Of a stretch of 64,000 nucleotides of DNA, positions 21,598 through 61,342 are shown piece after piece. The notes below the pieces were generated by a model that had not been told where the DNA came from, made no database searches, and was given only the letters and a program-made list of their open reading frames with translations. Both the position numbers and the translations under genes were made by a program. Each line of letters opens with the position of its first letter. Position 1 is the stretch's first letter. This DNA is from Vermamoeba vermiformis (taxonomy: Eukaryota), in NCBI GenBank assembly GCA_045837725.1, contig JBEWZL010000209.1, forward strand, positions 558,001 through 622,000, in the 5' to 3' direction.

Positions 21598-24500
21598 TTA
21601 TAGTTTGTTGTCTGTTGCCTTCCAGAATTTAATACTACCATTCAAACATGTTGAAGCCAACAAATCCTTGCCGTATGAAAGCGATGATAATGAAGTCTCG
21701 TGTGCCTATTTATAATGCCGTTAGTCATTGTTCAAACAATAACAGTATTAGGCAGCTCGATCTTCGTGCTAGAGATCTCATCTGAAACAGATTTTAGGCT
21801 GAGCTTACCTTAACAGCCACGGCCTTATCGCTGTTCATAAAGTCCCAGACGTGAATTTGCATGTAACCTCCAATATAAATTTTGTTTCTAGTAGACAAAG
21901 TTAGTTCGTGTTCGGATGCGCGGTCAGAAGCTTGATCCTAGAGCACTTACTCATTAGTATAAACACATGCTTGAAGTTTACGAGGCAATTTCGTTGTTTT
22001 GATGTGCTCAAAGTTGTTATTGGACGCATCCCACACCTTGACAACATCGTCTGAGATCGTGACTAGCCTATCACCCTGCAGAACCACCAGTTAGCCTACT
22101 GATAGAGGAGAGTATAGGAAGGGTGTACATACATTAGGCGACCATGTAATGGCGTTAATTGGTTTGTCATGAGCATCGCCAATGGTGCGCAGTTCTCGCT
22201 CGGTCGTGACATCCAAAATCTTGACCACCGTGTCATAACCTGCAGCGACTGTGTCACCACTGTGCGACTGGAATCGGGCAATCTTCTTAGCCGCGCCTTC
22301 GATCCATGACGAAGAGTTCTGTTCTTGCAAGTTCCAGAACCTAGTTGACAGGTTGTCAGATCAAAAGCCCGCCATCTGGATGTGACCGTTACGCTTACCT
22401 GAGAATACCGCCACTGTCAGAACTAGCCATCAGATAGGGTGTTCGTGGATGGAAATCGATGCTTGTAGCATTGAAAGTCTGATTATCGCTTTGGCTAGAA
22501 ATGAAAGGAAGATCAGACCGCGAGAACCAAAAACACATCTACAAAACTTACATTGCAGGCATCTTCAACGTCAAATGAATAGACTTTGTCTCGAGTCTGT
22601 ATCCCAAATACGAATCGTTTCTTAAAAACAAATGCTGTTAGTACTCCGATCTTAAGTCATTGCAAAAATTCGTGACTTACGATCTTGCGCGCAAGTAGCA
22701 ACGTATTTGGAAATAATAGGCGAGAACCGAACATCGACCACAGAGTACGTGTGTCCTTCAAATGTCATCGCAGGCTCGCGTCTTTCAACGTTCCAAATGG
22801 TGACTTTCTTGTCTTGACCTGCTGTGGCGAGCAACGATCCGTCCAAGTTGAAGTGCGAGGCCAATATTTTGTGCGGATATGTGATCGAGCCGAGCTCTTC
22901 TAACTTAGCTTCTTGCTCTGTTTGCACTGAGTAGTTGTCATCGCCAGTCTCTAAGAGCGAGTCGAGCAAATTTTCGTTCTTGTTCGAGTCATCGTTGCCC
23001 ATGTCGAGGAAACTTGACACGTCTGAGTCTTGCGACGGCTTCATTTCAACATCATTCGGCATCATCATTGGATTGCTCATGTTTGGGTTGTAATACTATA
23101 GAGAATTAGTCAGCAACAGATCCAAAAAGATTTGACACGTGTCACACTTACGCCATATTCCATTCCATTGCTCATTTGACCCTTTGGCATGCCGGGCATT
23201 GGTCCGCCCATATTCATTCCAGGAGGCATGCCCATAGTTGGCATGAAACGTTGGCCGTTAGGCTGACCGGGCGGCATGTACATCGTTGGTGGTCGGCCGC
23301 CTGGCGCAGGTTGACCTGGTCCGCCTGGTCGTCCGCCCATTTGAGCCATCTTCGCGTACTCTTCGGCACTTGGTCGGTTTGACATGTATCCTCCTGGGGG
23401 CATGCCTGGTTGAGGAGGTTGACCAGTGGAAGGTGGCACGGGCATTGGTCCGCCTGAGAGTGGACCTGCAGGAGCTCCTGGAGGTGACATTCCTGGGCCT
23501 GGCATTGGACCGCCAGGAATTGGACCTGAAGAGCCTCTCATTGGCCGTCGTGGTTGAGCTGCACCCTTTGCGGAGCCGCCTGTACTGCCAGTTGGTGTTG
23601 AAGGTCCTGATTGATCCATTGGACCTGCGCCGGGTTGCGACGATGCTCCGCCTTGATTAGATTGTTGTGTGCCGCTTGCGTTCATGCGAATTCTTGTGAC
23701 TGGCCCGCCTTGGTTCGCCGAGGGATTACTCCCATTACTGTCGCCTGTGGGTTGAAACATTTCAGGATTTGACGAGCTCATGGTGCCGGGAGTGCTTGGC
23801 GTGTTCGGAGCGCTGCCCATCGCATTGGGTGAGTTCACATTCTCGTGTCCCATGTACGGTGAGAATTTGGGTTGTCCTCCAGGGATCCCTGGCGCCCCCT
23901 TGGGGTAGTTTGGCATTCTCATTCCGTAAGGACCTGGTCCTGACCCGCCATGAGTTGGATGTGTCGGCATTCCTGGTGAGCCGCCTGGAGGCATTCCAGG
24001 ACCGCCTTGCATTTGTGAAGGATTCTGCATGCCAGGATAAGGCATCATACCACCAGGACCCGCCGAACCAGGGCCCATATTTGGTGGTTGACCAGGAGGT
24101 GCAGGTCCGCGAGAGACGCGAAGATTACGACCTGGACCTGATTGTCCTTGGTGACCGCCCATGTCTTGAGGGTTACCACCAGGGATGTTTCCCGCTTGAG
24201 GGTTATTCATGCCCCAACCACCCTCCTGAGCCATCCCCGGGCCATCCCTCGAAGGAGGCTGGGTTGTTGGCTGTTTGGCCCACGACCCTTTGGGTACTTG
24301 AGTGGGACCAGGGGGGAAATTGGATGGCTGAGGCAGCTGCTGGTTTCCCTGCATATTGCTAAACATTTCGTGAGGCATGTTGGGGTTTCCAGTCATCGAA
24401 GGTCCACCGGGACCTCCTCCTTGGCCACCAGGGCCAGCGTTACCATGAGGCGACGCGGGAGTAACGTTCATTGGTTGACCAGGATTTGGCATGCCAGGTG

Positions 24501-26345
24501 AGTTTGGGATGCCGCCAGGAGCGCCAGACATGTTTGAGAAATCTTTTGATGATCGCTGTGCACGAGACCGTTAGTGTCAGTCTAGCTTGAATAATCGATA
24601 GAACGAACCTTTTGCATGCGTGTCGCAGGACCCTTTGGTTGCATAGGGCCAGGACCTTGATTCATTTGAGGCGGGTAACCGGGAACAGGGCCGCCTGGTG
24701 CGCCTCCTTGACCAGGAGCTCCACCAGGGCCGGGCATTGGACCACGAGGGGGCATGTTAGGGTTAACGCCCATTGGGCCGCCTTGACCCATGTTCATGTT
24801 CATCTCATTTGGATTGAAGAAACCTTGTGGTGCATTTGGATTGCCTGATGGACCGGGGCCGCCAGGGCCTGTCGGGAACCCGCTTGCGCCAGCCCAAGGA
24901 CTACCAGGGCCTGCACCCGGGATTGGTCCCGAGGCACTGCTTCGATGTCCGGGCATACCACCAGGGGCCATGCTCGTGGGTCCTCCAGGAGCGCCAGGAC
25001 CGCTGGGCATGTTCATTGGCGCGCCTGGACCTCCAGGGGCACCAGGGCCCATTTGAAATGATCCAGGAGCACCAGGACCTCCAACTTGCGGACCTGCTGG
25101 CCCTCCAGTGGTCGGGTCTAACATGGTAGGTGGCATTCGATTTGACGGCGGGTATGGCACACCGGGTGGCATGCCAGGGCCGGGTCCTCCAGGACCATCA
25201 CGTCTGGGTCCTCCTGGCACCTTAAAATAGTAAAGATTAGCTTGGTATTCCTAGCAACACGATCAGACATTGATGGGTGTGTCGTTTTGTGCTTGGATAA
25301 AATTTAAAAATACAAATCGAGCAGGCGTAAGTAGGGCGTAAACGTCGGAGAGGTGATCCGATTCGTGGTAAAAGCATAAATGGGTATAATAGCTCTCATG
25401 TGACTACACATATAACATAACATCACATTTAAGTTATATTGCACGGTCACATTGAGGTTTCGCGATTTTTGCGCTTATTGCATAATTCTTTTGCCAGACT
25501 AAAAAATCCCTACGCCTTAACGGTTAAATTTACAATAAAATGCGTATTATTGTGACCGAGTTGAATAGCAGATAATTTGAGGATGGTGAAAAAAAAACAC
25601 CAAATCTAGCAGATTTTGCGACATGCGGAAAAATGATCAACTATCGCTTCTGCCGCTTTGTAAAGTAATAAAAATGGGCAACCAATATTATTTATATCGT
25701 ATTGGCTATTTGCAACGGTCAAACGGTGGTTTCTGTCAAGCACAAGGGCACGATCAAAAATAATTGATTACTGTCTGAGCACCTCTCGAACCACAAAAAT
25801 CCGTTCAATATTAAAAAAACAAACCGACAATAATTATAGAGGATTTTCTGTATTTTAGAATAAAAGCTTACTTGGTCTGCCATGAAAGGGGGATTCCCAT
25901 TGAAAGGTTGCCTTGGCTGCCAACCGACGGTCGAACCTCGTTGTCGTTGCATCTATATAATATAATTTTGAGCATTGGGCATGAAAATCGAGCAAAATCA
26001 ACGAGCTCAATGTAAAATCTCGTTATATCCATACATCAACGTAGGCCTTCGCGTCAGGTGACGACGTCTTCTTAGTCCTCGCGCTAAATACATCCCAAAA
26101 TACCGACCACCACTCCAAGAGAAAACCTCCTGGGGCACTGATTAGAACGGGATCGTGAGGCACTTGCGCTTCTTTCTGAAAAATATTGGCGCTCTTCTCT
26201 AGACCCTTCTTCCTCAGATAGTCCAGAATATATGCGTTCAGCCTATTATTTAATTATTAATTAATTAACTCGGGTGATTATCCCGTTGCAAAGGGATTAA
26301 GGATGCTCACATCTGGTCTGCTTCCCACTTGCTGGTTCCTGACAT
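21598..26345 (-). CDS. LEUNIG-like transcriptional corepressor (LisH/LUFS + Pro/Gly/Met/Gln-rich region + WD40 repeats)
   Basis: Spliced N-terminus WEADQMLNAYILDYLRKK...SAPGGFLLEWWSVFWDVFSAR (LUFS domain). About 700 aa of low-complexity sequence. C-terminal WD40 repeats (LLATAGQDKKVTIWN, FEGHTYSVVDVRFSP, AHDKPINAITW, GSIKFWK). Confidence 0.85.
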
Positions 26346-32716: not shown

Positions 32717-35403
32717 TTAATTTTTCAGCTTTGAAATAATCTTTGCAGCTATTTCAATGGCGGCTTCTATATCAGGGGCATAATACGCGTTCAATACGGC
32801 GTCAGTACATTCCGGAAAATGGTCCGCAAGTGAGGATCTGACACGTGTCAATTTTCGGTAATTGTTGTCAATGTAAACCACCGGTCGGTCAATCAAAGTT
32901 GCCATAATTGATGCGTGCAATCGATCGGAAATGATCACGCGACCGCGACTAAGCATTGTATTGCCTAATTGGGTTCGATATGACACCATTGCCTCGATGC
33001 TTTGGTCTTTGCCAGGATATAGATATCGATCTGGTAGTATCGATGTGATATTACTAACTACCTCGTCCGCCATTTTCGCCACGGGAAATCCCAAAATAGG
33101 AAAGTCGAAAAATTCCGCTGTCAAGTCCGCTTTCTTGGCCAAGTCCTTTATAGTTTGCTTGTCTAATGTAGTGTATTAGTATTGTTAGATAATACGCACT
33201 ATTGATATAGTTTAGTCCTTACTTGAAATAGCAGATTCGAAGTCTTGTCGGATCAAGAAAAAAAGATCCACGACAGGATCTGCATTAGGCAACAACGGTC
33301 CGAGCATGAAAGCCGCATCGGGTAAGTAAATAGCCTTTTCTAATTTAAACCTATCTTTGGCCAATTGCAAGGATTCGTTGTCTCGAAGCGTCATCGTCAA
33401 GTTTGGGTGTCTGTAGCTTTTCACCGCCAGATCCAACCGTTCTTGTGATTTGTAGTGGATACTTTGCGGTAACATGACTAATCGTGCGTTATATAAAAAG
33501 TTGTCGTAGCCAATCACATTGATCAGCTGCCATCGATCGCTATCTGCTTCGGGATAAATGTCACCCACATTGCCACCACCTGTCATGAACAAAACTCCGT
33601 TGTGAATGTCAATTTGTCCCTAAATAAAACAAAGCTCATATTAGCACCACTGATCTTATGATAACTTATAAAGTCGGTCCCGAATTAGTCAATTTTTCAG
33701 ATGTGGATGTGTCACGAATCCAATTACTTACGGTTATCAGTAGATTATACGATTTGAAATTATCAACGAGCGTAGGTGAGCGTTGTGCTATTTGTCCATA
33801 TATATTCCATAGTGTAGTCTGGCCGTTGTAAATGAACGCATCGCCCAAGTTCCAATGATCCGGAAAATGAACGACCGCAAAGTTAGCGTTGGGTCTGATC
33901 ATAGATGATACTTGATCTATATATAGCGATCGTGTTTTGTGCAGGCACTGCTGTCGCATTTGCTTTCTCACGCCTACTGGCATGGATCTGTCGTTGAAAT
34001 CGATCAATGGGATCTCGACACTTGGTTTCTTAAACGTTGTTTGTTCGATATTATAATCGATCTTTTGAGGTAAATTTTGCAATTGTGCGTGCACCATAAA
34101 CAGCACAAAAGTCACAATGATGACACCTGTCAATTTTTGAGTCGCGTAGTTGTTGTGCTGTTGCATGATTCGAGGCGTTATAATATCGTTGTAATGCTGA
34201 TCTATCAACGGCTCTTCATCAAATCTATTATATGCAGCCATGGCTATCAATACCATCGATATTAAGATGATCAGTAAGGGGATCCCGGAACTCGTCAAGA
34301 TGGCAGATGTGACTCCACAAATAAGACTCGCAGTAACAGTGGCCGTTTGCTTCGTTGTTGGTAATGATTGCCTCGTGAATATGAAAGCTAAACAAGCCAA
34401 AGCACCGCTTGCAATCAGCAATTTTAGATCCGGAATTCGGTTCATGAACGAGTCCCGTTCGACAGGTGACATGAGCCACAAGACGAGACACAACGTTGCG
34501 TCGGATACGATGTCCGATTGAACGACTATCATCTTCGTGTGCTGAGAGGATAATTTCTTGGCTTCTAGTCTGATTATCGATGAACTCGCTGCGAAAGCCA
34601 CATCCAGCAATGAAATCGACTTGTTTGCTCGTAGAAACAAAATTGAGCCGACCAAACTGAGCCACAGCATCTTCTTATTGTCTATTTTCTGCTCCATAGC
34701 ATTGGTAGCAGTAATTGCCAGCAACTAAAAGCCACAAATTAATTAGGTCCGAATTTAATACACGTGATTTTGTGCTGTTGCTGATTTATCATTAAATATG
34801 CCGGCATATCGGTAAGTCCGTCGTAATTTTTAAGATATCGAAATTCATGTAATCATGATAACGGAAGTGTTCCGCGTGTAATTTACCTGGATCAAAACGT
34901 ATGAGGTTAGATCGACGTTGCTTATTGCCAAAAAGAATAGTAACAGGTCGCTTCCTCTATAAATAGCCAGTTCTACGTTCGCCGCGTTGAATATACGGGT
35001 TTCTTTGTTCATTCCTTGCAGCATCCCGTTATAAATCAGAGCCATCGCAGCACAGGCCATAGTTAATATCATAGGGGCTGATAATATCGATAGAAAATAA
35101 TATGAGAACAGTATTCTGGCCGTTTCAGCGGCGATGCCAGCAATAACATCGCACTGGCACCAAATCCGCATGGTATACCAATTCTGATTCTTATTCTACT
35201 TATTCTATCTAAAAATTATGCCTCAACATGTGTCGTTCATGTTGTGCATAAATAAATTCCAATAAACTGAAACACAACATTGGCAATGCAGAAAGATTCT
35301 GCCTGACAAATGACGGCTTTAAATTTAATTCGGGTATTTGAACGATTTCGTCAGCTTGACGATAGTTATAATTAAATCGATTATCTAATATTTGGAACTG
35401 CAT
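32717..35403 (-). CDS. Polysaccharide pyruvyltransferase (Pvg1/EpsI-like) with an N-terminal multi-pass membrane domain (5' end approximate)
   Basis: HWNLGDAFI, GGGNVGDIYP, PQSI, LRDNES, PDAAF, SDRLHASIMATL..P and DNNYRK motifs. ORF 33666-34724 links several TM helices in-frame to the catalytic domain. Confidence 0.8.
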
Positions 35404-45603: not shown

Positions 45604-47239
45604 ATGGACCACGAAGAAAATAGCGACGAAACAGCTTTCCAAACGAGTTCGAGTGACATTGAAGATGACACGTGTCACCAAACGACTGCTGAGCGCGCCA
45701 ATACAAGCGCAGATCTGACGCAGTTATCGCATCGATCAGAAGGCACTGAGACTAGAAGAGTACTAAAACAGCCTTTATTGTTGAACAATAGTGACACGTT
45801 AAGAAGTGGCTCGGGAACTTCATCCGCTAACAGATCTGATGTGGAGCATGCGCGCCCGATTGATGATAGTGACGATCACAAGTACGCGGAGATTAATAAC
45901 CAAAAAAGGAAATATTTTCAATATATTCTGCGAGCCTACGAATACTCGAAGGGAAACATGCCTGCGTGGACCGAGAAAATGAACGCCATGGACTCGAAGT
46001 GGGGTCAGTGCCTCCGATTTATAGACGCCTTATTGCGTGGCGTTAGTCAGGTACTGTATTATCTACACCCTATCGCAGCGCAAAAGGAGCTAACAAATCT
46101 CTTACAGATCGGATTCGTAAACAGTCCTATTTTTGGCTTAGGAACGTTTCTAGTAGCGCTTTTCACCGAGTAAGTATAATTATCTATGTTTTTTACTATA
46201 GTCTATCAACTTCTATTCAAGTACGTGGATTGGACTCTGCGGCATGGTGGGCTGTTTGTGTACTTCCGTATTCGCGGTGCTGTTCAAACTGAACAAAGAA
46301 TCATTTAGGTACGGCATTACAATCCTATTTATTGGTAGTATAATTACGATCTAATGGCCAAGCAGGCTTGGATTATTTGGATTTAACGGGTATTTATTTG
46401 GTGCCTCGCTCGCGATCTACCTTTCAACTGCTTGGGATTGGCGGACAGTAGTATTAACCATTCTATTGGCGCCATTGACTATCGTGAGTCGCGATGGATT
46501 AATGATAACTTAACATTAGCTTACTCGATTTTGAACAGATCTTTCAACTTGGTATCGGCAATATTCTATCGCCCTATAATTGCCCACCATTCGGCTTACC
46601 GCTCTGTATAGTCGCCAATCTGCTATTTTTAGCACTCAAAAATGCCCAACCAAAAGTAGAAGCAGCTGTGGCTAATGCTGTTGCGGGGTACGAAATTCCA
46701 CACGATGCTTGGGACGCACCAGTATTCTTTCAATCGCTGGGCCGGTGCATTGCTTTAACGTTTTTCAAGCTCAATCCATGGTCGTAAGTTTTCAACAAAA
46801 CTAAACTTCAGTGAGTAAGATCTGTTTTTCTAGATCAATTGGCTTCGCCGCGTTGTTGCTTTTATATTCGCCCATCCATACACTGAACGCCGTTACAGGC
46901 TCATTAGTTAATACAGCCACTCTTTTTGTCCTCGGTGTGGATGAGGCTAAAATTGCCAACGGAGTTTTAGGCTGGAACTCGACTCTATTATGTAAGACCC
47001 ATCAATGCATGGTGCTGTTCACTAACGCCTATTTAATATTAGGCTTGATGCTAGCAGAGTTCTTCAAACACAGCTTGACTTCGTGGCTGTACGCCATCTT
47101 TGCCTCAATATTGACGACGTTGCTGCACGTGAGCATTGCGCCAATGTTTGCGGCGATTGGTTTGCCTGAAATCAGCTTGCCATACACTATCATTGGATAC
47201 TTATTCGTCATCTCAAGAGCGCTTGTGGTGCCAGATTGA
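45604..47239 (+). CDS. Urea transporter (UT/SLC14 family)
   Basis: FIDALLRGVSQ|IGFVNSPIFG, GLFGFNGYL, PPFGLPL; second repeat LGRCIALTFFKLNPWS, NGVLGWNSTL, LPEISLPY. This is the duplicated LP-box architecture of UT channels, with about 10 TM helices. Confidence 0.85.
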
Positions 47240-47496: not shown

Positions 47497-49475
47497 TTAT
47501 TCACCTTGGCCTTGAGAGAAGCTAGGCTTGCCGTTCATCAAGTACAAGTTCTCCATCTTGATAAAGTCGAAGCCAGCATTGCGAATGCGCATCAACAACG
47601 AGATGATCTGCGCGTGCTTGATGGGCTCACCAGTCACAGACTTGAATCTGCAGCGCCAGTGGTCAGTGCAGAAAGTCTCGGGGAAGCCGTTGGGCCAGAC
47701 TTTAACACCACGGTTGGTGATCAAAGTCAACTTCATGCCGTCACCGTTCAAACTCGAAATAGCAGTGCCCAAGTCTTCAGCAGTGCCGTTCTTGGGAGAC
47801 CAGTGCAAGAAGATGTCGCAACCGATCGTGTCCTTCTTGGCAGGAGGAACATCAGAGACAGTTGGGCGCCACTCCTTCATCGAGCTGCCGTCTCCCTTAG
47901 CGTAGTGCACGGGCTTGAGTTGAACTGGCTTCTTGCCAAGTCGTTCAATAACGGCCTAAAGTGCACGGTCAGCACAACTAGTAGATCTAGATCCGGAGCT
48001 CGTTCGACGTACCTTAGTGAACTCAGTGGTGCTGACCTTCTTCTTCGAGACACCCTCGCGATAAATATCAGGAGTGTGGAGACCGTCTTCAATGGTCTTG
48101 AGCCAAGCGTTGTGCACGTTCTCAGCTACATCAGGTTGACCAATGTGCGACATCATCATCACAGAGGACAGCAAGAGACCGGACGGATTGGCGACGTTCT
48201 TGCCGGCAATTGGGGGAGCAGAGCCGTGAATGGCTTCGAACATTGCACCGCCGTCACCAATGTTAACGGATCCACCGAGACCGACGGAGCCAGTCAATTG
48301 AGCAGCGACATCAGAGAGAATGTCACCGTACAAGTTAGGCATGACTACAACGTCAAACATTTCGGGGGTATCAGCAAGACGAGCAGCACCAATGTCGACG
48401 ATCCAGCGGTCCTTTTGGATGTCTGGGTAACGAGCACCAACTTCTTCAAAAACTGCACGAAAATTATTAAAATATTTCCTATTAATTATATAATTGATAT
48501 TAATACCTTTGTTGAACAAGCCGTCGGTCATCTTCATAATGTTGTCCTTAACGAAGCACGAAACTTTCTTGCGACCATGTCTACGTGCGTACTCGAAGGC
48601 GTATTGAATAATACGCTCGCAACCAGGTCTAGAGATGAGCTTCAAGCATTGAACGACTTGATCGCTGAATTTTTAAAATGGATTAGTCTAGATCTGAAAA
48701 TTAGAATTATCTGCTTACGTTTGCTGATGCTCAATTCCTGCGTATAAATCTTCCTCATTCTCACGAACAATAACAACGTCCATATTAGGGTGCTTAGTCT
48801 CGATGAATGGCGAGTACACATTGCAAGGACGAACGTTCGCGAAAAGGCCCAAAGTCTTACGGATCGTCACGTTCAAAGATTTGTAGCCACTGCCGATGGG
48901 TGTGGTAATAGGACCCTTCAACAAAACTTCATTGATGGTGAGAAAGGTATATTTTTAAAAATTTTAGTAATAATTTTACCTCGAGTTTTGCGGATCGAGT
49001 CCCAAGATGAAGGAGCAATGCCTGAAGAATGGCCCTAAAAAGGCGAACACGTTAGAAATGGATTCTTCCATGTTTCAGCGACGTACTGAGAGGTAGACCT
49101 TCTCTCCAACATCAATGTGGTCCCACTGAATTGCGGCGCCTGCTCGATCCAGAATTTCTACAGTAGAATTTGTGATTTCGGGACCTTTGTGGCTCTATTA
49201 GTACTCGTAATACGTAGCTGCGTAGCTTTTACATACCAATTCCATCACCTTTGGCAATTGTAACGGCCACCTAAAAAGATCGTTAAAAATAACAGCAGAT
49301 TGGATCTACTTTGGTTTACCTTCTCTCGCTGGGCAAACAACGAGGTTGAGAAAGAGCGAGAAGCGGTGTTCTTAGTAACGGAGTTCAGTGCTTTAACCAG
49401 TTAGATTACAAAGCGCTGCGAAAGTGGCGATTTTAACTTACCAGGCTTCGATTTGCTCAATACTTGACGCAACAT
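47497..49475 (-). CDS. icd: Isocitrate dehydrogenase, bacterial (Rickettsia/Thermus-like) type, with a mitochondrial-type presequence
   Basis: [11 protein letters not shown]...TASRSFSTS leader. [71 protein letters not shown]-terminal extension [10 protein letters not shown]...TDHWRCRF...KMENLY...FSQGQGE. Confidence 0.93.
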
Positions 49476-49944: not shown

Positions 49945-52900
49945 TTAATGCATGGTGTGAGTAGCGAGGTAATCGTCGTAGTTCTTGATGGGCATATCCT
50001 TGACGCGAGTCAATGCTTCGGCCAAGAAAGCGCAGACTTGCTCGTTGGTCAAGCAAGGAACACCAAAGTCAACGGACTTTCTGCGCAGATGGTAGTTGGA
50101 GATGTCTTCGTTGCGAGTAGGGAAGTTAATAACCAAGTCGAGCTTCTTTTGAGTGACCCAAGTGATGGCGTTGTTAGCGTCCTTTGAGCTGAGGTCGGGC
50201 TTGGAGAGCTCCGTGAATTTAACGTTATTCTTCTTCAACAAGGGGGCAACCTCCGGAGTGGCAAACAAAGTGTAACCGCCGCCGACCAAAGTTTGAGCGG
50301 ATTTGACGAACTCTTGGGTGACGTTGCCAGAGAGCAAAACGGTCTTTTGCTTAGTGGGCATCTTGAAGTAAGGAGGAACAGAGGTCATGGCCTTCAAGAA
50401 GGCTTCATACTTGTTCTCACCGAAGCAAGCGACTTCACCAGTGGATGCCATTTCAACACCCAAGATAGGATCAGCACCACCCAAACGTTGGAAGGAGAAT
50501 TGAGGAGCCTTGACACCGACGTACTTCAAGTCGCTGTTGCACTTGTAGTTAGGAGTGATCTTTTGACCCATGAAGACCTTGGTGGCAGTCTCGATAAAGT
50601 CAATGTCGTAAGTCTTGGAGACGAACGGGAACGAGCGAGAGGCACGCAAGTTGCACTCGATGACGAGGATCTCGTCGCCCTTGACCAAGAATTGAATGTT
50701 GCAAGGACCAGAGATCTCCAAGGCCTTGGCGATCTTGCTGCCCATCTCGAAGACGCGGCTCTTGACTTGTTGGCTCAAAGTGTCAGAAGGCAAGATCATA
50801 GTAGCATCACCAGAGTGAACACCGGCGTTTTCAATGTGCTCAGAGATGGCCCAGTTGACCATAGTACCGTCGCAGGCAACACCGTCAAGTTCAACTTCAC
50901 GAGCACCCAAGACGAACTTGGTAATGACAACAGGGTGGTCAGGGTTAACATCAGCAGCCATAGCCAAGTAGCTGACCAACTCTTCTTCGTTGGCAGCGAC
51001 GTTCATGGCGGCACCAGACAAGACGTAAGAAGGACGAATCAAGACGGGGTAACCGACCTTCTTGGAGAAGGACTTGGCCTCATCCATGGAGCTGAGTTCC
51101 TTCCACTCAGGCTGGCCGACGCCAATGCTGTCCAAGAGCTTAGAGAACTTGTAGCGATCTTCGGCTTGATCGATCTTGTGCGGGTTAGTACCGAGAACGT
51201 TGACGCCGTTCTTGTACAAAGGCAAGGCAATGTTTTGAGGTTGTTGACCGCCGACTGAGACGATGACACCGTTGGGGCTCTCACGATCGTGGATATCCAA
51301 GACACGTTCGAGAGACAACTCTTCGAAGTAGAGCTTGTCGGACTCGTCGTAGTCCGTGGAGACAGTTTCGGGGTTGTAGTTAACCATGATTGTCTTTTCG
51401 CCCATCTTGCGCAAGTTGCGAACGGCAGAAACAGCGCAGTAGTCGAACTCGACGGAGCTACCGATGCGGTAAGTACCAGAGCCCAAGACCATGACGCCAC
51501 CCTTGTCTTCGGGGATGTCGCTCTTTTGACCGTTGTAGGTCATGTACAAGTAGTTGGTCTTGGCAGGGAACTCAGCAGCCAAAGTATCGATTTGCTTGAC
51601 GACAGGAACGACGCCCATGCCCTTACGAACGCTACGGACTTCGAGTTCGTCGGCCTTGGCGTACTTGCCGATTTGCTTGTCGGAGAAACCAGCAGACTTG
51701 GCCTCACGCATGAGTTCACGAGGAATGTCAGTGACGTTGCCAATGCTGACAATGTTCTTTCTGATCTCCACAATGTGCTTCAACTTCTCCAAGAACCACT
51801 TGTCGATTCTGGTCAATTGCCAGATAGTGTCAACAGAGTAGCCTTGTTCCATAGCCTTGGCGATGGCGAAGATGCGGTTGGGAGTAGGGTTCTTCAACTC
51901 CTCGTCCATGTCGCCTTCGAACTTGGCTTCGAAGCCAGCGTTAGAAGGATCGACCATGCGGAGGGCCTTTTGCAAGGACTCTTCGAAGGTACGACCAACA
52001 GCCATGACCTCACCGACAGACTTCATTTGACTGCCGAGGAGAGGTGAGACGCGTTCAAACTTCTTCAAGTCCCAACGAGGAATCTTGGTGACAATGTAGT
52101 CCAAGCTAGGCTCGAAGCAGGCAGAGGTAGACTTGGTGACGCTGTTGGAGATTTGGTGCATAGGAATGCCGAGAGCAATCTTGGCGGCGACGAAGGCGAG
52201 AGGATAACCAGTAGCCTTGGAAGCCAAAGCGGAAGAACGAGAAAGACGAGGGTTGACCTCAATAACGCTGTATTCGAGGCTGTTGGGGTTGAGGGCGTAC
52301 TGAATGTTGCATTCACCGACGATGCCCAAGTGTCTGACGGTCTTGATAGCAGCAGTACGGAGCATGTGGTACTCTTCGTTGCTGAGAGTTTGAGAAGGAG
52401 CGACGACGATGGATTCACCAGTGTGGATACCCATGGGGTCGAAGTTCTCCATGTTGCAAACAGTGATGCAGTTGTCTTGAGCGTCACGAACGACTTCGTA
52501 TTCGACTTCCTTCCAGCCCTTCAATGACTTCTCAACCAAAATTTGAGGAGCAGAGCTGAGAGCACGAGAAGCCAAAGCTTCGAGTTCAGTGGGGTTGTTG
52601 GCAAAACCAGAGCCCAAACCACCCAAAGCGTAGGCGGCACGAACAATGACGGGGTAGCCGACCTTTTCAGCGGCTTCGAGGGCAGCCTTGACGGTGACGA
52701 CGGCCTCGCTCTTAGCGAACGGCTCACCAATCTCAGCGAGCTTTCTGTTGAAGAGCTCACGATCTTCAGTGGCCATAATAGAGTCGACGGAAGTACCCAA
52801 GACACGAACGTTGTACTTCTCCAAAATACCTTGGTGGGCCAATTCAACACCAGTATTCAAACCGGTTTGACCACCAAAACCAAGCAAAACGCTGTCAGGT

Positions 52901-54757
52901 TTCTGTTAACAGGCTAGGTTAGTACACGATCAACTGAACTCACTCAAACTAGTGAACTCACCTCGCGTTGAATAACGCCCTCGACCATTTGTGTAGTGAC
53001 AGGCAAGAAGTAGACTTTATCGGCAATACCCTTGGCGGTTTGGACGGTAGCAATGTTCGGGTTGATCAAGACGGTCTCAACACCTTCTTCCTTGAGGGCC
53101 TTGATGCACTGAGAGCCAGAGTAATCGAACTCTCCGGCTTGACCGATTTGCAGAGCACCAGAACCGATGATCAAAACCTTACGAGCGGTTTGAGTCTTAG
53201 CGGGTTGAGCGATGAGGTGAGTCTTGTTCTTGTAGTTGACGACAGTGTCGTAGAACTTGCCGAAGAGGTACTTGGTATCGTATGGGCCACCACGAGCTTC
53301 AGGGTGGAATTGAACGCTGAAGAAAGGCTTGGTCGCGTGCATGATACCTTCGTTGGAGCCGTCGTTTTGGTTAATGAAGTAAGGCTTCCAGCCAGCAGGC
53401 AAAGTTTGGTTGTCAACAGCGTAGCCGTGGTTTTGAGAAGTAATGTAGCATCGTCCGGATGTCTGATCCATAGCAGGTTGGTTTTGACCTCTGTTACCGT
53501 ACTTCAATTTGTAGGTATTGGCGCCAGCGGCGAGGGCCATAAGTTGGTTACCCAAGCAAATACCTGATAGCGGGTAATTAATACAAATTATTTGTGATTT
53601 TTAAAGTATAAATCCGCGTTTGCCACGGATCGAATCCCTTACCGAAAATAGGTTTTCCGATTTGATAAGCTTTCTGAATGTGAGAGATGGTAGCAGTGAC
53701 TGTAGCGGGATCACCAGGACCGTTGGAAATGAAGAGACCGTCGTAATCTTCGTTGGTAAAGTCGTAGTCCCAAGGCACAACTTTAACGGTAACGTCGCCC
53801 ATTTTGACGAGCTCTCTGATAATGTTGTACTTCATACCGCAGTCTACGGCGATGATCTTAAGCTTGCCATGGCCGTAAGTCTTGACTTCCTTGGTAGAAA
53901 CTTTCTCCACCAAGTTGCCGGAAAAGGCGCCTTCGAGATCGATATCTTGGTCGAAAACAATTTTACCAAGCATAACACCGCGGCTACGGAGCTTGCGAGT
54001 CAAGGCACGAGTATCGATTCCGCTGAGAGCGGGGATATTTTCGCTCTTGAGCCAGTCGCCCAAAGATCTTTCAGCTTGCCAGTGAGAGTAGTTCTCCGAG
54101 TAGTTAGAGACGAGCAAACCAGAAACATCTGTAGGAGAAGTGGATTAAGGAAAAAAAAAGTCTGGATCTTGTGGATTTGAAGTTCATGAACGGTTTAAAA
54201 TTAAACATAAATTTTTAGGCAACTAGGGCTTAAGGATACGAATTCGATCGGATTCGAAGTGCTTGAGAAGGCCAACTTCGTCTGTTTCGCGAAGAGGCAC
54301 ACCATAGTTGCCGACCAACGGGTAAGTGATAGTCAAAATTTGGCTCTTGTACGAAGGATCTGTAAGGGATTCAGGATAGCCGACCATACCGGTGTTGAAG
54401 ACGACTTCACCCTTCGTAGGGCGGTAGGCACCAAAGGAGGTACCTGCGAAGGTGGTTCCGTCTTCAAGGACCAAGTAGCCCTTCAAAAAAATTAAGTTAG
54501 CGAAACGGCGGATGAAAGCAAAAAGCTAAAAATAACCAATTTGTGTTTTTGTGAATGCGATCGTTTGCTTACCGGTTCGCCGTGACCATCCTTAGCCTTG
54601 GAGGCGTACAGACGCTTGCTGCCAACGGCGGTTTTCGGGTTTACAACCGCGGAGGATAGTTTACCAACTGCATTTATAGAAATTGTTATAATAATGAATG
54701 AGAATGCGTAATTAAGATTGAGCTCGTACCTGAAAGTTTTTGGATCGCGCGCAGCAT
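49945..54757 (-). CDS. Glutamine-dependent carbamoyl-phosphate synthase (fused small + large subunit) with a mitochondrial-type presequence, not CAD-fused
   Basis: Six exons. Leader [67 protein letters not shown] (catalytic Cys kept), [15 protein letters not shown], two ATP-grasp halves and an MGS-like tail. Stop at 49945 with no DHOase or ATCase domain. Confidence 0.97.
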
Positions 54758-55026: not shown

Positions 55027-57474
55027 ATGGCTGACGCTCGCAAAGAGATCTTCACTTCTATCGTTAACTCCACTCCTCGTCGTGTGGAGGAAAAACACTG
55101 GAACAACGCTAAGGAGTTCATCGAAACATTCGCCGACGAAGTGTTGACCGATGAGATCCTTCGCAACTTGGTTCCCGACTCCACTTGGAAAGCGTACCAA
55201 AAGGCTCGCCAAGATCCTCACCACGACATCGACGCTCAAACCGCGGACCAAATCGCCAACGCTATGAAGGAGTGGGCCTTGTCTAAAGGTAAGAATTTAA
55301 CGTTAGTTTTAGCTTTATTTCGGACAAAATCGATATCCATTTTTAGTGATCCAGATTTTAATATTAAAATTTAATTAGGTGCGACTCACTTTACTCACTG
55401 GTTCCACCCCATGACTGGCGCTACTGGCGAGAAGCATGACTCTTTCTTGAACTACTCTCGCAAGGACAACAAATTCATCATCGAGTTCAGCGGCCGCGAG
55501 TTGATTAAGGGCGAGCCCGACGCCTCTTCATTCCCTAGCGGTAAGTGCTTTATCGGGATTCAACCGTTTCACAATCTGCGACCTTGAGATTTGTTTACTA
55601 AGTATACTAAATTAGGTGGTGTACGCGTTACCTTCGAAGCCCGTGGCTACACTGTTTGGGACATGAGCTCTCCTGCCTTCATTAAACGCGGTGCCAACGG
55701 ATCCAGTCTCTACATCCCAACCGCTTTCTGCTCCTGGTAAGTTTCTGGATCGATCTACGTTTCGCATCTAAAAATGGAAACTTACAATTGCTGCAGGACT
55801 GGTGAAGCCCTTGATACTAAGACTCCTCTCTTGAGAGCCGAAGAAGCCATCTCTCGCGAATGCACTCGCTTGTTGAAGGTTATCGGAGAAACGGATGTGG
55901 ACTTCGTCCGCACTACTATGGGTCCGGAGCAAGAATTCTTCCTTATTGATCGTGGCTACTATCTTAGCAGACCCGACCTTGTTGCCGTTGGTCGTACCGT
56001 CGTTGGTGCCCCACCAAACAAGGGTCAAGAGAGCGAATATCACTATTTTGGCGCTATCGACCAAAGAGTATTGGCATGCTTGCAAGAGCTCGAAATTGAG
56101 TTGTGGCGATTGGGCATCCCCGTCAAGACTCGCCACAATGAGGTCGCTCCTTCACAATTCGAGATGGCTCCAATTTACGAAGGCTCGGTTATTGCCGCAG
56201 ATCACAACTTGTTGGCAATGGATGTGTTGCGCGAAGTTGCTGCTAAGCACGGACTTGCTTGCTTGTTGCACGAGAAGCCCTTCAGCTACGTTAACGGCTC
56301 TGGCAAGCACTTGAACTGGTCTCTTGAAACTAGCAAGAAGGAGAACTTGCTCGAACCTGGCGCTACTCCTCGCGACAACCAACGCTTCATTCTCTTCTTG
56401 GCCGTTATTCTCAGAGCTATTCACCTCCACGGCGAGATGCTCCGCGCTGTTATTGCAGTGCCGGGCAACACTCACAGATTGGGCGCCAACGAAGCTCCTC
56501 CAGTTATCATCTCCGCTTACTTGGGATCTGAATTGGATGCTGCTTGCAAGAGCGTTATGGCTGCTGACTCTGGTGCCGCCAACGGCAATGCTCAAAACGT
56601 TCTTCGCTTGGGCGTTTCTAACTTGCCTCCTTTGCCTCGCGATCCTTCTGACCGTAACCGCACTTCTCCTTTCGCCTTCACTGGCAACAAGTTCGAATTC
56701 CGTGCTTGCGGTTCTTCTCAAAACATCTCCTTCCCCATCACTGTGTTGAACAGCATCGTTGCCGACTCCGTTAGATACTTCGCTGACGAGATCGAGAAGC
56801 GTGTTGCATCCGGTACTGCTCGTGCTCAAGCCATCAACAATATCATCATTGAGGAGCTTAAGAAGCACTACACTGTTGTTTTCAACGGCAACGGCTACAG
56901 CGAAGAGTGGGTTGTTGAGGCCGTCAAGAGAGGTTTGCCCTTGTTGAAGACTGCCCCTGAAGCCTTGGCTGTTTGGGACAAGCCTGAGAGTCTCCGCATC
57001 TTCAAAGAACAAGGTGTTCTGAGCCACATCGAGGCCTCCTCTCGCTCGCTCATTTTGCACGAAGCCTTCTTCGAGAGCATGTTGACCGAAGCCCGCGTCA
57101 TGGTCGACCTGGCCTCCACTCGTATCACTCCTGCCGCCGTGAACTATCAAAGACAATTGGCTCGCAGCTACAACGACGCTTTGTCCGTCCTCAAGGACGA
57201 GAAGCTCTTCGTCAACCAAAAGAGCACTTTGTCTTCCGTCACTGCATTGCTGGAGAAGCTAATCCACGCTACCAACGAACTCCGCGAGATCCTCCACAAG
57301 GCTGAGGCTGATGTCAAGAAGACGGATTTCAGAAAGGCTTTGGCTGCTTGGTACGAGCCTGTCATGAGCACTATGCCCAAGGTTCGATCAGCCAGCGACG
57401 AGCTTGAGCAAATCCTCAGCGACGACCTCTGGCCTTTGGCTAAGTACAGCGAAATTTTCCTCACTAGCAAATAA
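55027..57474 (+). CDS. glnN: Glutamine synthetase type III
   Basis: Four exons. [119 protein letters not shown]. No presequence seen. Confidence 0.96.
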
Positions 57475-57900: not shown

Positions 57901-59726
57901 TTAATTTTTGTAGTTGGCAGGAATCATGTTGAGCAACTCTTGGGCGGTCTTGATGGAGCCAGCCTTGGAGGCAATGGTGCGGACAGTGTCGTAAGCAGAC
58001 TTGACACGGTTGTTATCGGCTTCGAGGACCTTCTTGTGTTCCTCCAACTCGCTGCGGAATTGCTTCAACATATCGGCAACAGCCTTAGGACCAGTACCAC
58101 CAACAGAGTTGTAAGTCATCATAACAGACTTCGGGTCGAGAACGCGTTGCAAATCTTCGCGAGAAGCCTTGATATTGTGCTTGTTGACAATGTGGTTGTA
58201 GCAGGCTTCGAAGTTCTTGAAGTTGTCCTTGGCGCGGTAGAGATCACCGACCAAGCTGCCGACAATATGGTGAGCCTCTCTGAAAGGAACGTTGTGCTTG
58301 GAGACCAAGTAGTTAGCAAGCTCGGTAGCATTGGCGAAGTTCTCAAAGGCGAGCTCGTTCATTCTCTCGGTGTTGATGGTGGTGGACTTGATGAGAGGAG
58401 GGATGACTTCAATAGCCTTGTTGATGATGTTCAAGGACTCGACGAGGATCTCCTTGTCTTCGTGGAAGTCTCTGTTGTAGCCAGAAGGCAAGCCCTTCAT
58501 CATAGTGAAGCCAGCGACCATCAAACCGTTGATGCGACCAGAGCGACCACGGAGCAACTCGAGAGCACCAGGGTTTTTCTTTTGAGGCATCATAGACGAG
58601 CCCATAGCGAAGCCGTCGTCGAGAGTGAGGGTTCTGAACTCGTAAGAAGACCAGAAGATGAATTCTTCGGCCAATCTGCTCAAGGTAGATTCCAAGATGG
58701 CGACAGCGCTGACGGTCTCGAGCATGAAGTCACGAGCAGAGGTAGCGTCCAAACCGTGAGGATGAACCTTTTGGAAGCCCATCAAACGAGTGGTGATTGT
58801 TCTGTTAATGGGGAATGAAGTGCCAGCAATAGCACCAGTGCCGAGAGGGTTTTGATCGGTAGTGTCGTACGCGCGCTTCAGACGTTCCAAGTCACGCAAC
58901 AAGATAGCGGCGTAGTGAGACAACCAGTAAGCAACAGAGATGGGTTGAGCGTGTTGAACGTGGGTGTAGCTAACCATAACTGTTTCCAGGTATTGCTGAG
59001 ATCGCTCCAAGAAAGTCTCGACGGCTTCAACAACGCGTCCTCGGAGCTCCAAGAGTCTGCGGCGAGCGTACAACTTAGAGTCCAATACGACTTGGTCGTT
59101 ACGAGAGCGGCAAGTGTGCATACGACCACCGTGATCCATGCCGATCTCCTTGATCAGACGAGCTTCGACGTTCATGTGCACGTCTTCTTGTTCGTGGCCA
59201 AGAGCCCACTTCTTATCAATCTATTTTAATTATTACGGGTAAGTAGGAGAATTTTTAAAATTAATTCATAAAAAATTAATCCAGTACTTACGAAGTCGTT
59301 TTGGAACTTTAGAAGAGCTGGCAAAATTGCGGCAGCAGCGGCAGGAGGGATAACTCCTTGAGCACCAAGCATGGTAGTATGCGCCAAGCTACCCCAGATG
59401 TCTTCAACGACCAAGTTGCTATCGACGGTGATGGATTCGGTCCATTTAAGGAGCGAAGTATCGACGTCTCTCGAGAAACGACCACCCCACAACTTGGTAG
59501 ATTTCTTCTCGCTGGCCAAAGGAGAGCTACTCCGAAAGGTATTATTAATACAGCCGTACTTAATTATCAACTATTCTTAAACTAACCTTGTGTGGAAGGA
59601 AGCCACGGGAGTTGCCTTGCGGGCCTCAGTTGCGAGGACAGGAGCAACAACGTTAGGCTTACGAGCAGCACGGGATACGGTTCTGCTAGTAGCAGAAGCG
59701 ACGCGGCGAGTGATTTGCGAAAGCAT
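57901..59726 (-). CDS. argH: Argininosuccinate-lyase-family enzyme with a mitochondrial-type presequence
   Basis: Three exons. Arg/Ser/Ala-rich leader MLSQITRRVASATSRTVSRAARK. KLWGGRF, EDVHMNVE, HTCRSRNDQV, YTHVQHAQP, GSSMMPQKKNP, GLPSGYNRDFHEDKE, PFREAHHIVG. Confidence 0.92.
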
Positions 59727-60006
59727 CTGTGTTTGTTTGGTAGATGGAGTGGATGAAACAAAAAACGAAAATCTAAACCACCAAGGTAGGCAAATTTATT
59801 AAATTTATGGTTAAAATAGTTCAACAAAAGGGCATATTCCTTTTATAGACTACTGAAATATAAATCTCCGTGGATCGCGCTCCAAAAAATGTACGCAAAG
59901 TTTTCCCAGCACGTGGCGACTTTTCCTCCGACAATAGCAACGGATAGCATCCGTTTCAGTTTATGGTTTGGTGACCACGTAGCTCATTCAATCTCACAAA
60001 AAACAA
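59727..60006. promoter_or_regulatory. Putative bidirectional promoter between the ASL-like gene and ATCase
   Basis: 280 bp between divergent ATGs. Contains AATCTCCGTGG (59863-59873), GCACGTGGC (59909-59917) and the inverted repeat AACGGAT-AGC-ATCCGTT (59939-59955). Confidence 0.6.
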
Positions 60007-61342
60007 ATGTTGAAGAACGCAATTACTAAGGGTACGACCTCCGGCATTTGTTCGTTATAAATCCCGTACTAACGTCGATTACTTTAGGAGTTCAACTCTT
60101 ATCAAGCAACAGTGCTCGCAAATCTCCTTCTTTGGTTCGGGTATGCCTGGATCCACTAAGTTTATTTTTATTTCGATTTTAAGTTTTTATTTTTAAAAAT
60201 TAGGGTCTCGCTACAGCTTCGCCTCGCGTTGCCAGCTTGAAGGGCAAGAGCATTTTGTCTCATGCTCAGTTCGACAAGAACACTTTGGACGAGCTATTCG
60301 ATGTTGCCAAGTACCTCAAGAAAGTCGTGGATGAGAAGGGCGAAACCAACGATCTCGCTGGAAAATACATGGCTGCTGTCTTTTATGAGCCATCAACACG
60401 TACTACTTCTTCTTTCCAAACCGCTATGATGCGCTTGGGCGGAAAGGTTATTGGTGGTACGTACAATTTTCATTAATCGCAGTTTATTTAAGGGACGCGT
60501 TACTAACCGTTAAATGACCTAGTGAACTCTCAAGCTTCATCTGTTGCCAAGGGTGAGACTCTTCCTGACACTATTCGTGTTATGCAAAACTACGTGGATG
60601 CGATCGTTCTGCGCCATCCTGAGATGGGAGCCGCTGCTACCGCCGCTAAATGGTCCAGAGTACCTATCCTTAACGCTGGTAATTTTAATATTATTTTTAA
60701 CGCCCAAAGACTTTTCTAACAAAGATTTTAGGTGATGGTGCTAACGAACATCCGACTCAAGCTTTGCTCGATATGTTCTGCGTCAAAGAAGAGCTCGGCA
60801 AGCTCAATGGCTTGACTGTAACCATGCTCGGTGACTTGAAGGTACGTAGCTGATGTCGGCAGTAATGTACAGTCCTTGTAACATTTATTAATGGCTTGTT
60901 TCTCGCTTAGTACGGCCGCACTGTGCACTCGATGGCACCTTTGATGGCACACTACGGCATCAAGTTCAACTTGGTCTCGCCTCCTTCATTGAAGATGCCC
61001 AGCGAATACGTTACTTTGTTGAAGAGCAAGGGCGCACAAGTCACTGAAACTGAGGACCTCGAGAGCGTGTTGAAGTCCACCGACGTGTTATATGTGACTC
61101 GTGTTCAAAAGGAGCGCTTTGCTACTGAAGAAGAGTACAAAAAGGTCAAGGGTTGCTACATCATCGACCCTGCTCTCTTGTCTCGTGCTCCCAAGAACAT
61201 GCTCGTACTTCATCCTCTGCCTCGTGTCGATGAAATCACTCCCGAAGTCGACAGCGACAGCCGTGCTATGTACTTCAAAGAGCCTCGCTATGGTATGATC
61301 ATGCGCATGGCTCTCTTGCTCTCCGTTCTCGGTGGCAAATAA
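60007..61342 (+). CDS. pyrB: Stand-alone aspartate carbamoyltransferase with a mitochondrial-type presequence
   Basis: Six exons. Leader [98 protein letters not shown]. These are ATCase-specific; OTC's SMG and HCLP motifs are absent. Confidence 0.93.

What the first reader, a model, noticed from the sequence alone, without database searches (positions are those of the whole stretch)
60007..61342. Stand-alone, presequence-bearing ATCase paired head-to-head with the ASL-like gene, where OTC would be expected
Seen in sequence: all aspartate-binding motifs (KGE, GRT, TRVQ, HPLP) are present, so it is not OTC. The N-terminal leader is encoded by two small exons plus the start of exon 3. The C-terminal motif reads YFKEPRYG rather than the usual YF.Q..NG. 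Established knowledge: in animals, fungi and Dictyostelium, ATCase is part of cytosolic CAD/URA2. Inference: this is a second, compartmentalised ATCase with a non-pyrimidine role, or a relocated pyrimidine pathway.
Basis: partly seen in the sequence, partly recalled or inferred. Interest (0 to 1): 0.72.

Follow-up and report, generated by a model that had tools for sequence, protein, structure and literature searches.

The report
Possible ornithine-free urea pathway in amoebae
An amoeba carries a spare, apparently mitochondrial copy of a pyrimidine enzyme that keeps turning up next to an unusual lyase gene in protists and bacteria, which suggests an untested short-cut for making urea without the classic ornithine cycle.

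Summary
60007-61342 is a six-exon, 342-aa aspartate transcarbamylase (ATCase) with all aspartate-binding motifs, no OTC motif and a presequence-like leader. The genome also has an intact CAD. I found no OTC, argininosuccinate synthase (ASS) or stand-alone dihydroorotase. The ATCase ends a nitrogen cluster: urea transporter, NADP-IDH, leader-bearing CPS, GSIII, ASL-like lyase, ATCase.

The ASL-like gene belongs to a distinct subfamily (amoebozoans, a malawimonad, rare myxobacteria). All 11 of its loci with at least 3 kb of flank have an ATCase neighbour; none has ASS or OTC. Among 77 canonical argH controls, 0 have ATCase and 64 have ASS or OTC. In bacteria the order is carA-carB-lyase-pyrB', alongside a separate argG and argH. 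The lyase keeps the fumarate-side catalytic residues but has fixed swaps, including one in the leaving-group pocket.

Best reading, untested (~0.57): carbamoyl phosphate + Asp gives carbamoyl-aspartate, which the lyase splits into urea + fumarate. Against it: several arginine-binding residues (roles recalled) are kept, the genome has urease, and localisation is only predicted.

The parts
60007..61342 (+). Stand-alone ATCase, 6 exons, 342 aa, with a ~35-aa presequence-like leader
57901..59726 (-). ASL-like C-N lyase of a distinct subfamily, 3-exon model of 565 aa, presequence-like leader; proposed carbamoyl-aspartate (ureidosuccinate) lyase
59727..60006 (.). 280-bp divergent intergenic region shared by lyase and ATCase; one CACGTG at 59910
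49945..54757 (-). Fused small+large carbamoyl-phosphate synthetase without DHO/ATC domains; presequence-like leader; glutaminase Cys and HPE motifs intact
55027..57474 (+). Type III glutamine synthetase, no leader, divergent from CPS
47497..49475 (-). NADP isocitrate dehydrogenase of the PRK09222/TIGR02924 type with presequence-like leader
45604..47239 (+). Urea transporter (PF03253; TIGR03441 below cut-off on one exon), spliced in RNA contigs

Best explanation
The ATCase is the middle enzyme of a three-enzyme module for ornithine-free urea formation. Mitochondrial glutamine-dependent CPS makes carbamoyl phosphate. The stand-alone ATCase joins it to aspartate, giving N-carbamoyl-L-aspartate (ureidosuccinate). 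The ASL-like lyase then eliminates the N-substituent, giving urea + fumarate. Fumarate would return to aspartate through the TCA cycle and transamination; GSIII and NADP-IDH would feed nitrogen, 2-oxoglutarate and CO2; the urea transporter would move the product. Keeping this in the mitochondrion would separate it from cytosolic CAD. Shown: gene identities, the linkage, and failure to find OTC/ASS in this assembly. From family knowledge: ATCase chemistry and ASL-family elimination of N-substituted aspartates. Inferred: the lyase substrate, the direction, the location and the physiological purpose.
For: (1) Own genome: only two OTCace loci, CAD and this gene. No ASS by Pfam (the single E=0.04 hit has stops and lies at a ribokinase-like gene) or by protein query. 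One ASL-type gene only. So the lyase has no visible argininosuccinate source and the second ATCase no visible DHOase partner. (2) Neighbourhood: of 59 subfamily loci, 13 have ATCase, 9 CPS, 0 ASS or OTC. Of those with >=3 kb flank, 11 of 11 have ATCase. Of 77 canonical argH loci with >=3 kb flank, 0 have ATCase and 64 have ASS or OTC. (3) Bacterial operon carA-carB-lyase-pyrB' with overlapping or adjacent genes. Both GTDB genomes that carry it also have argG, a separate argH-type gene and further carbamoyltransferases elsewhere, so both the lyase and pyrB' are extra copies. (4) Four eukaryote-like contigs link lyase and ATCase, each in an arrangement different from the window's (L115, L132, L142, L153). 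(5) The lyase subfamily is one clade (SH-aLRT 100, stem 2.36). It keeps T161, H162, S283, K289, N291 and E296 but has fixed swaps (90 subfamily vs 81 canonical rows; duck numbers): D293G 90/90 vs D 81/81, Q328H 89/90 vs Q 81/81, N230H 89/90 vs N 81/81, T281M 90/90 vs T 80/81. D293 sits 10 residues after the catalytic Ser, like EDDS-lyase Asp290, which lines the amine pocket (PMC6973171, passages). Losing that acid fits a neutral leaving group. (6) CPS, lyase, ATCase and IDH all have acid-free, basic N-termini; the CAD N-terminus does not. (7) Urea transporter in the cluster; GSIII and Amt beside the bacterial operon L026. (8) Recalled precedent: adenylosuccinate lyase releases an amide nitrogen from SAICAR.
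Against: No activity is shown. S29, D33, D89, H91, Y323 and K331, recalled as binding the amino-acid end of argininosuccinate, are kept in the subfamily, which also fits a larger substrate. The lyase fragment still scores above the argH cut-off (437 vs 279.5 bits). The genome has urease and arginase, so urea is also made and used by known routes, and the transporter may import. In L114 and L139 the lyase precedes pyrC-pyrR-pyrB, a pyrimidine context. The L132 ATCase has no leader. 37 of 59 loci have under 1 kb of flank, and 9 of the 22 with >=1 kb show no ATCase or CPS. L114 and L139 look like one sequence, and the bacterial loci are related, so the counts are not independent events. Absence of ASS/OTC rests on one intron-rich assembly of unknown completeness. 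Urea is a poorer leaving group than guanidinium (established chemistry).
Confidence: 0.57

Rival explanations
1. Carbamoyl-aspartate is first converted by an unidentified enzyme into a guanidino-succinate (argininosuccinate by condensation with ornithine, or guanidinosuccinate), and the lyase releases arginine or guanidine: an OTC/ASS-free arginine route.
For: Arginine-end residues (roles recalled) are retained; the argH profile passes; no OTC or ASS was found in the host.
Against: No fourth conserved gene lies within the carA-carB-lyase-pyrB' run. The two bacteria already have argG and another argH. Q328H and D293G are fixed.
Confidence: 0.14
2. Same reaction run backwards: imported urea + fumarate gives carbamoyl-aspartate, salvaging urea nitrogen into pyrimidines.
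For: Urea transporter in the cluster; lyase-pyrC-pyrR-pyrB order in L114 and L139; family reactions are reversible (established).
Against: CPS and ATCase would be redundant beside it, yet they are the conserved partners. Urease already handles urea. No mitochondrial DHOase was found.
Confidence: 0.1
3. Ordinary functions that merely cluster: the mitochondrial CPS and ATCase give extra carbamoyl-aspartate to the DHOase of CAD, and the lyase is a normal ASL scavenging argininosuccinate from prey.
For: All ATCase residues are canonical; the argH profile passes; the L132 ATCase has no leader.
Against: It does not explain why 11 of 11 well-flanked lyase loci have an ATCase against 0 of 77 controls, nor the operon in bacteria that hold a separate argH, nor the fixed pocket swaps on a long stem.
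Confidence: 0.12
4. The ATCase paralogue carbamoylates another acceptor and the lyase acts on another N-substituted aspartate in an unknown secondary pathway.
For: ASL-fold enzymes with other substrates exist; EDDS lyase ranks 3-5 in the fold search.
Against: Every aspartate-binding motif is kept (PMC4581275 passages). No tailoring genes were seen next to the operons read in full.
Confidence: 0.07

Closest known systems
ATCase (PyrB catalytic chain; ATC domain of CAD/URA2)
   Same: All CP- and Asp-binding motifs; best PDB sequence matches of homologue P0124 are ATCases, including CAD ATC domains.
   Different: Stand-alone with a leader in a genome that has intact CAD; forms its own eukaryotic clade (12 rows, SH-aLRT 95, includes a relative of Acanthamoeba ELR25239.1 and Thecamoeba) apart from CAD and from bacterial pyrB'; no DHOase partner found.
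Stand-alone eukaryotic ATCases of plants, trypanosomes and Plasmodium (PDB 6ypo, 4iv5, 5ilq; organisms recalled)
   Same: Eukaryotic ATCase not fused into CAD; the plant one is organellar (recalled).
   Different: Those replace CAD in pyrimidine synthesis (recalled); this one is in addition to CAD and linked to a lyase.
Argininosuccinate lyase / delta-crystallin (ArgH)
   Same: Fold, signature loops, all catalytic residues; about 40% identity.
   Different: Separate clade; fixed D293G, Q328H, N230H, T281M, aromatic-to-W near residue 26; ~50-aa C-terminal helical extension; neighbours are pyrB/carAB, never argG/argF.
Ornithine-urea cycle, especially the glutamine-dependent mitochondrial CPS III form (recalled)
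   Same: Proposed net chemistry: one N from carbamoyl phosphate, one from aspartate, urea and fumarate out.
   Different: No ornithine carrier, OTC, ASS or arginase step; two enzymes after CPS instead of four.
EDDS lyase and adenylosuccinate lyase
   Same: Fumarate elimination from N-substituted aspartates other than argininosuccinate; the EDDS lyase structure aligns over 431 columns, TM 0.81.
   Different: 27-28% identity to EDDS lyase; neither is reported to act on carbamoyl-aspartate in what I read.

Membership tests
ATCase | FxExSxRT, HPxQ, HxLP and R105 (CP site) | tested here: met
   features from PMC4581275 passages
ATCase | RxQxER 240s loop, R167, S80/K84 (Asp site) | tested here: met
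   RVQKER, GRT, SSVAKGE
ATCase | Measured carbamoylation of L-aspartate | not testable with these tools
   needs an enzyme assay
OTCase | DxxxSMG loop, HCLP, FxKxSxRT | tested here: not met
   NCBIfam ranks
CAD/URA2 pyrimidine ATCase | Fusion with CPS and DHO domains | tested here: not met
   own start and stop; separate CAD on C2; different clade
Split pyrimidine pathway | No CAD, with a stand-alone DHOase | tested here: not met
   class II DHOase was not searched with its own model
Mitochondrial matrix protein | Cleavable basic, acid-free amphipathic presequence | tested here: inconclusive
   composition fits; no trained predictor or localisation available
ArgH (for the neighbour) | TIGR00838 above cut-off; catalytic T/H/S/K/N/E | tested here: met
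ArgH (for the neighbour) | Invariant N230, T281, D293, Q328 of canonical ASL | tested here: not met
ArgH (for the neighbour) | ASS partner in locus or genome | tested here: not met
   0 of 59 loci; not found in own genome; the two bacteria have argG but also another argH
Ornithine-urea cycle | CPS, OTC, ASS, ASL and arginase all present | tested here: not met
   OTC and ASS not found; arginase present

The most novel reading that the evidence does not exclude
A previously undescribed enzyme, ureidosuccinate (N-carbamoyl-L-aspartate) lyase, defines a linear CPS-ATCase-lyase route to urea that needs no ornithine, citrulline or arginine. It is kept as a gene cluster in several protist lineages and as an operon in rare myxobacteria, and is hidden under the label 'argininosuccinate lyase'.
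Probability: 0.57. Interest if true: 0.92.

Novelty: categorically new. Interest (0 to 1): 0.85.

Why it matters
De novo urea synthesis from ammonia is taught as needing the ornithine cycle. A route of two steps after CPS that borrows a pyrimidine intermediate would be a second solution, would skip the ATP-costly ASS step, and would add a new reaction to the ASL/fumarase superfamily. It would also explain 'incomplete urea cycles' (CPS and ASL without OTC and ASS) in protist genomes and correct many annotations. One purified protein and an A240 assay decide it.

Tried and rejected
C-terminal YG as a sign of new function: rejected; it also occurs in ordinary pyrB.
Relocated pyrimidine pathway: rejected on CAD.
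Weak ASS Pfam hit on C127: rejected; it has stops and lies at a ribokinase-like gene.
Shared origin of the eukaryotic ATCase and bacterial pyrB': not supported; they fall in different clades (L144 dropped as mis-extracted).
CPS trees (the first lost the bacterial rows to a pattern error, the Rigifila row dropped out of both) are too thinly sampled to give a donor or direction. The lyase tree is the quick search; the careful one did not finish.
The GSIII row in the leader table was read in the wrong frame and is discarded; the ORF shows five acidic residues in its first 30.
CACGTG as a cluster-specific regulator: not supported; 23 copies across the window.
The AlphaFold model of the lyase fragment (pLDDT 82.6) and Foldseek gave only ASL and EDDS lyase; they cannot name a substrate.
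A sample of 401 genomes of G001's phylum held the lyase only in G001.
RNA depth was too low, and from diverged strains, to rank expression or show co-regulation.
Ten literature searches listed no paper describing carbamoyl-aspartate cleavage to urea + fumarate; I saw listings and abstract starts only. Two structure papers were not held, so substrate contacts in duck ASL are recalled. Four look-ups of earlier findings were empty.

Full report
OBSERVATION. The gene at 60007-61342 splices through five GT-AG introns of 53-69 nt into a 342-aa protein. It has every motif that PMC4581275 (passages seen) gives for ATCase and none of the OTC motifs. ATCase profiles beat OTC profiles on the three exons scanned. 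RNA of related strains shows joints at introns 3-5. Introns 1-2 are not among the 15 of 21 joints listed, so the two leader exons remain a model. The first 30 residues hold five basic and no acidic residues, as do the leaders of seven close homologues give or take one acid; a side branch (P0233, P0249-P0251) has 2-3 acids. The ending YFKEPRYG is real, but YG also ends ordinary Chloroflexi pyrB, so only [EQ]P.YG marks the clade.

SURROUNDINGS. The ATCase is the last gene of a 16-kb nitrogen cluster: urea transporter, NADP-IDH, a fused CPS with intact glutaminase motifs, GSIII, an ASL-like lyase and the ATCase. CPS/GSIII and lyase/ATCase are two divergent pairs. IDH, CPS, lyase and ATCase have presequence-like starts; GSIII and CAD do not. 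A protein 96% identical to the lyase shares a 90% cluster with one labelled Vermamoeba vermiformis, so the host is probably a tubulinean amoeba.

OWN GENOME. The carbamoyltransferase families match two loci only: this one and a CPS-DHO-ATC fusion on C2. ASS was not found by family or by protein query. The lyase is the only ASL-type gene; the other Lyase_1 hits fall in three further loci that I did not read. Of the eight amidohydrolase loci, one is the CAD DHO domain and one is urease; four were scored as deaminase-type, isoaspartyl-peptidase or weak deaminase-like; one had no hit; one is a near-duplicate not scored. None is a stand-alone DHOase. Arginase, urease and a second stand-alone CPS are present. 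Completeness of the assembly is unknown, so these are 'not found', not 'absent'.

THE NEIGHBOUR IS THE KEY. The lyase's nearest relatives are 59-83% identical apart from a 96% near-twin, and include Stenamoeba, Dracoamoeba, Gefionella and a Myxococcales protein. Canonical ArgH is near 40%. A subfamily motif scan gave 2 GTDB genomes and 57 metagenome loci. By tblastn, 13 of these 59 loci have an ATCase, 9 a CPS and 0 an ASS or OTC. With at least 3 kb of flank it is 11 of 11 for ATCase. Of 77 equally flanked canonical argH loci, 0 have ATCase and 64 have ASS or OTC. Most subfamily loci are too short to judge (37 of 59 have under 1 kb of flank), and 9 of the 22 with 1 kb or more show neither ATCase nor CPS.

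Seven bacterial loci have a divergent pyrB' directly after the lyase, six of them with carB before it. Two near-identical loci have lyase-pyrC-pyrR-pyrB instead. Both GTDB genomes carry argG, another argH-type gene and further carbamoyltransferases elsewhere. Four eukaryote-like contigs link lyase and ATCase, two of them with CPS, each in an arrangement unlike the window's; the L132 ATCase has no leader. The bacterial form is rare: 1 of 401 genomes in a sample of G001's phylum.

SEQUENCE OF THE LYASE. Thirty-three subfamily rows form one clade against 18 canonical rows (SH-aLRT 100, stem 2.36, quick tree). I compared 90 subfamily rows (the window model plus 89 of 120 hits kept as full length) with 81 canonical rows. 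The fumarate-side residues are kept, while N230H, T281M, D293G and Q328H are nearly fixed. Duck, Thermus and Arabidopsis ASL have the canonical letters at these four sites; E. coli has Ser at 281. D293 lies ten residues after the catalytic serine, as does EDDS-lyase Asp290, which helps position the amine substrate (PMC6973171, passages). H162 and E296 are described as the fumarate-side network in PMC2779060 (passages). Against a changed substrate: S29, D33, D89, H91, Y323 and K331, which I recall as holding the amino-acid end of argininosuccinate, are retained, and the argH profile still passes.

THE ATCASE CLADE. Twelve stand-alone eukaryotic ATCases group together (SH-aLRT 95), apart from CAD domains and from bacterial pyrB'. 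They include Thecamoeba and a protein clustering with Acanthamoeba ELR25239.1. The ATCase partner therefore seems to have been recruited more than once, while the lyase is shared. The direction of any transfer is unresolved.

MECHANISM. The product of ATCase is an N-substituted L-aspartate, the substrate class of this lyase family. The simplest reaction joining the three linked genes is carbamoyl phosphate + Asp to carbamoyl-aspartate, then elimination to urea + fumarate. A recalled precedent for an amide-type leaving group is SAICAR cleavage by adenylosuccinate lyase. The family's equilibria are of millimolar order (recalled), so removal of fumarate could pull the reaction. GSIII and IDH fit as suppliers and the urea transporter as the exit. 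With urease in the genome, urea could be a store or a detoxification product rather than waste. I put the lyase acting on carbamoyl-aspartate at about 0.67 and the forward, urea-forming reading at 0.57. Rivals: a hidden route to arginine or guanidine (0.14), ordinary functions that cluster (0.12), reverse salvage of urea (0.10), another acceptor (0.07).

PRIOR KNOWLEDGE. Ten searches of the paper library listed nothing describing this route (listings only). A review of carbamoyl phosphate fates has no occurrence of 'fumarate' (PMC6022934, passages). PMC4581275 notes bacteria with two ATCases, where the second has an unknown role. A term search in PMC7050145 found nothing; PMC7601404 and PMC2851718 were seen as passages and added only motif background. 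Subscription papers, such as amoeba mitochondrial proteomes, were not searchable and may have noted these proteins; no supplements were read.

VERDICT. A genuine second ATCase, and part of a conserved CPS-ATCase-lyase module that fits no pathway I could find described. The proposed chemistry is untested but cheap to test. Interest 0.85.

Noticed in passing
L174 (G000:C296, about 98600-103800): A second stand-alone fused CPS, 77-78% identical to the cluster CPS over the part compared and sister to it; three CPS genes in all with CAD.
   Followed up: partly
window 47497-49475: NADP-IDH of the PRK09222/TIGR02924 bacterial type with a presequence-like leader and several introns.
   Followed up: partly
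window 49550, 49680, 49716, 54821, 59910: CACGTG lies 65-100 bp upstream of the IDH, CPS and ATCase starts, but there are 23 copies in the window (12.5 expected), so it may be a general promoter element.
   Followed up: partly
L153 4502-5446; L147 125-1264; L026 13968-17287: Other lyase loci have a mitochondrial carrier, a glutamine synthetase, or GSIII plus an ammonium-transporter-like ORF nearby.
   Followed up: partly
L132 1477-6735; L133 3-590: CPS of these AT-rich eukaryote-like contigs has an extra ~200-aa N-terminal region of unknown nature.
   Followed up: no
L107 7483-8418: pyrB' of this operon is split over three frames in the assembly (sequencing error or pseudogene).
   Followed up: no
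window 57901-58070 (lyase C-terminus): A ~50-aa helical C-terminal extension missing in canonical ArgH; EDDS lyase aligns structurally over the longer length.
   Followed up: partly
G000 C41/C103, C282/C235, C291/C126: Arginase, a Lyase_1 gene and a deaminase each appear as near-identical pairs on two contigs, suggesting allelic duplication in the assembly.
   Followed up: no
P0131: Rigifila CAD-like protein lists CPS and ATCase Pfam domains but no amidohydrolase domain, and ends in YG.
   Followed up: no
window 3492-4894, 11625-12155, 17642-18163, 22652-25250, 32717-33619: By eye only: a papain-like protease with WSC-like repeats, two related helical-repeat ORFs, a Pro/Gly/Gln-rich WD40 protein and a pyruvyl-transferase-like gene. 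Not scored.
   Followed up: no
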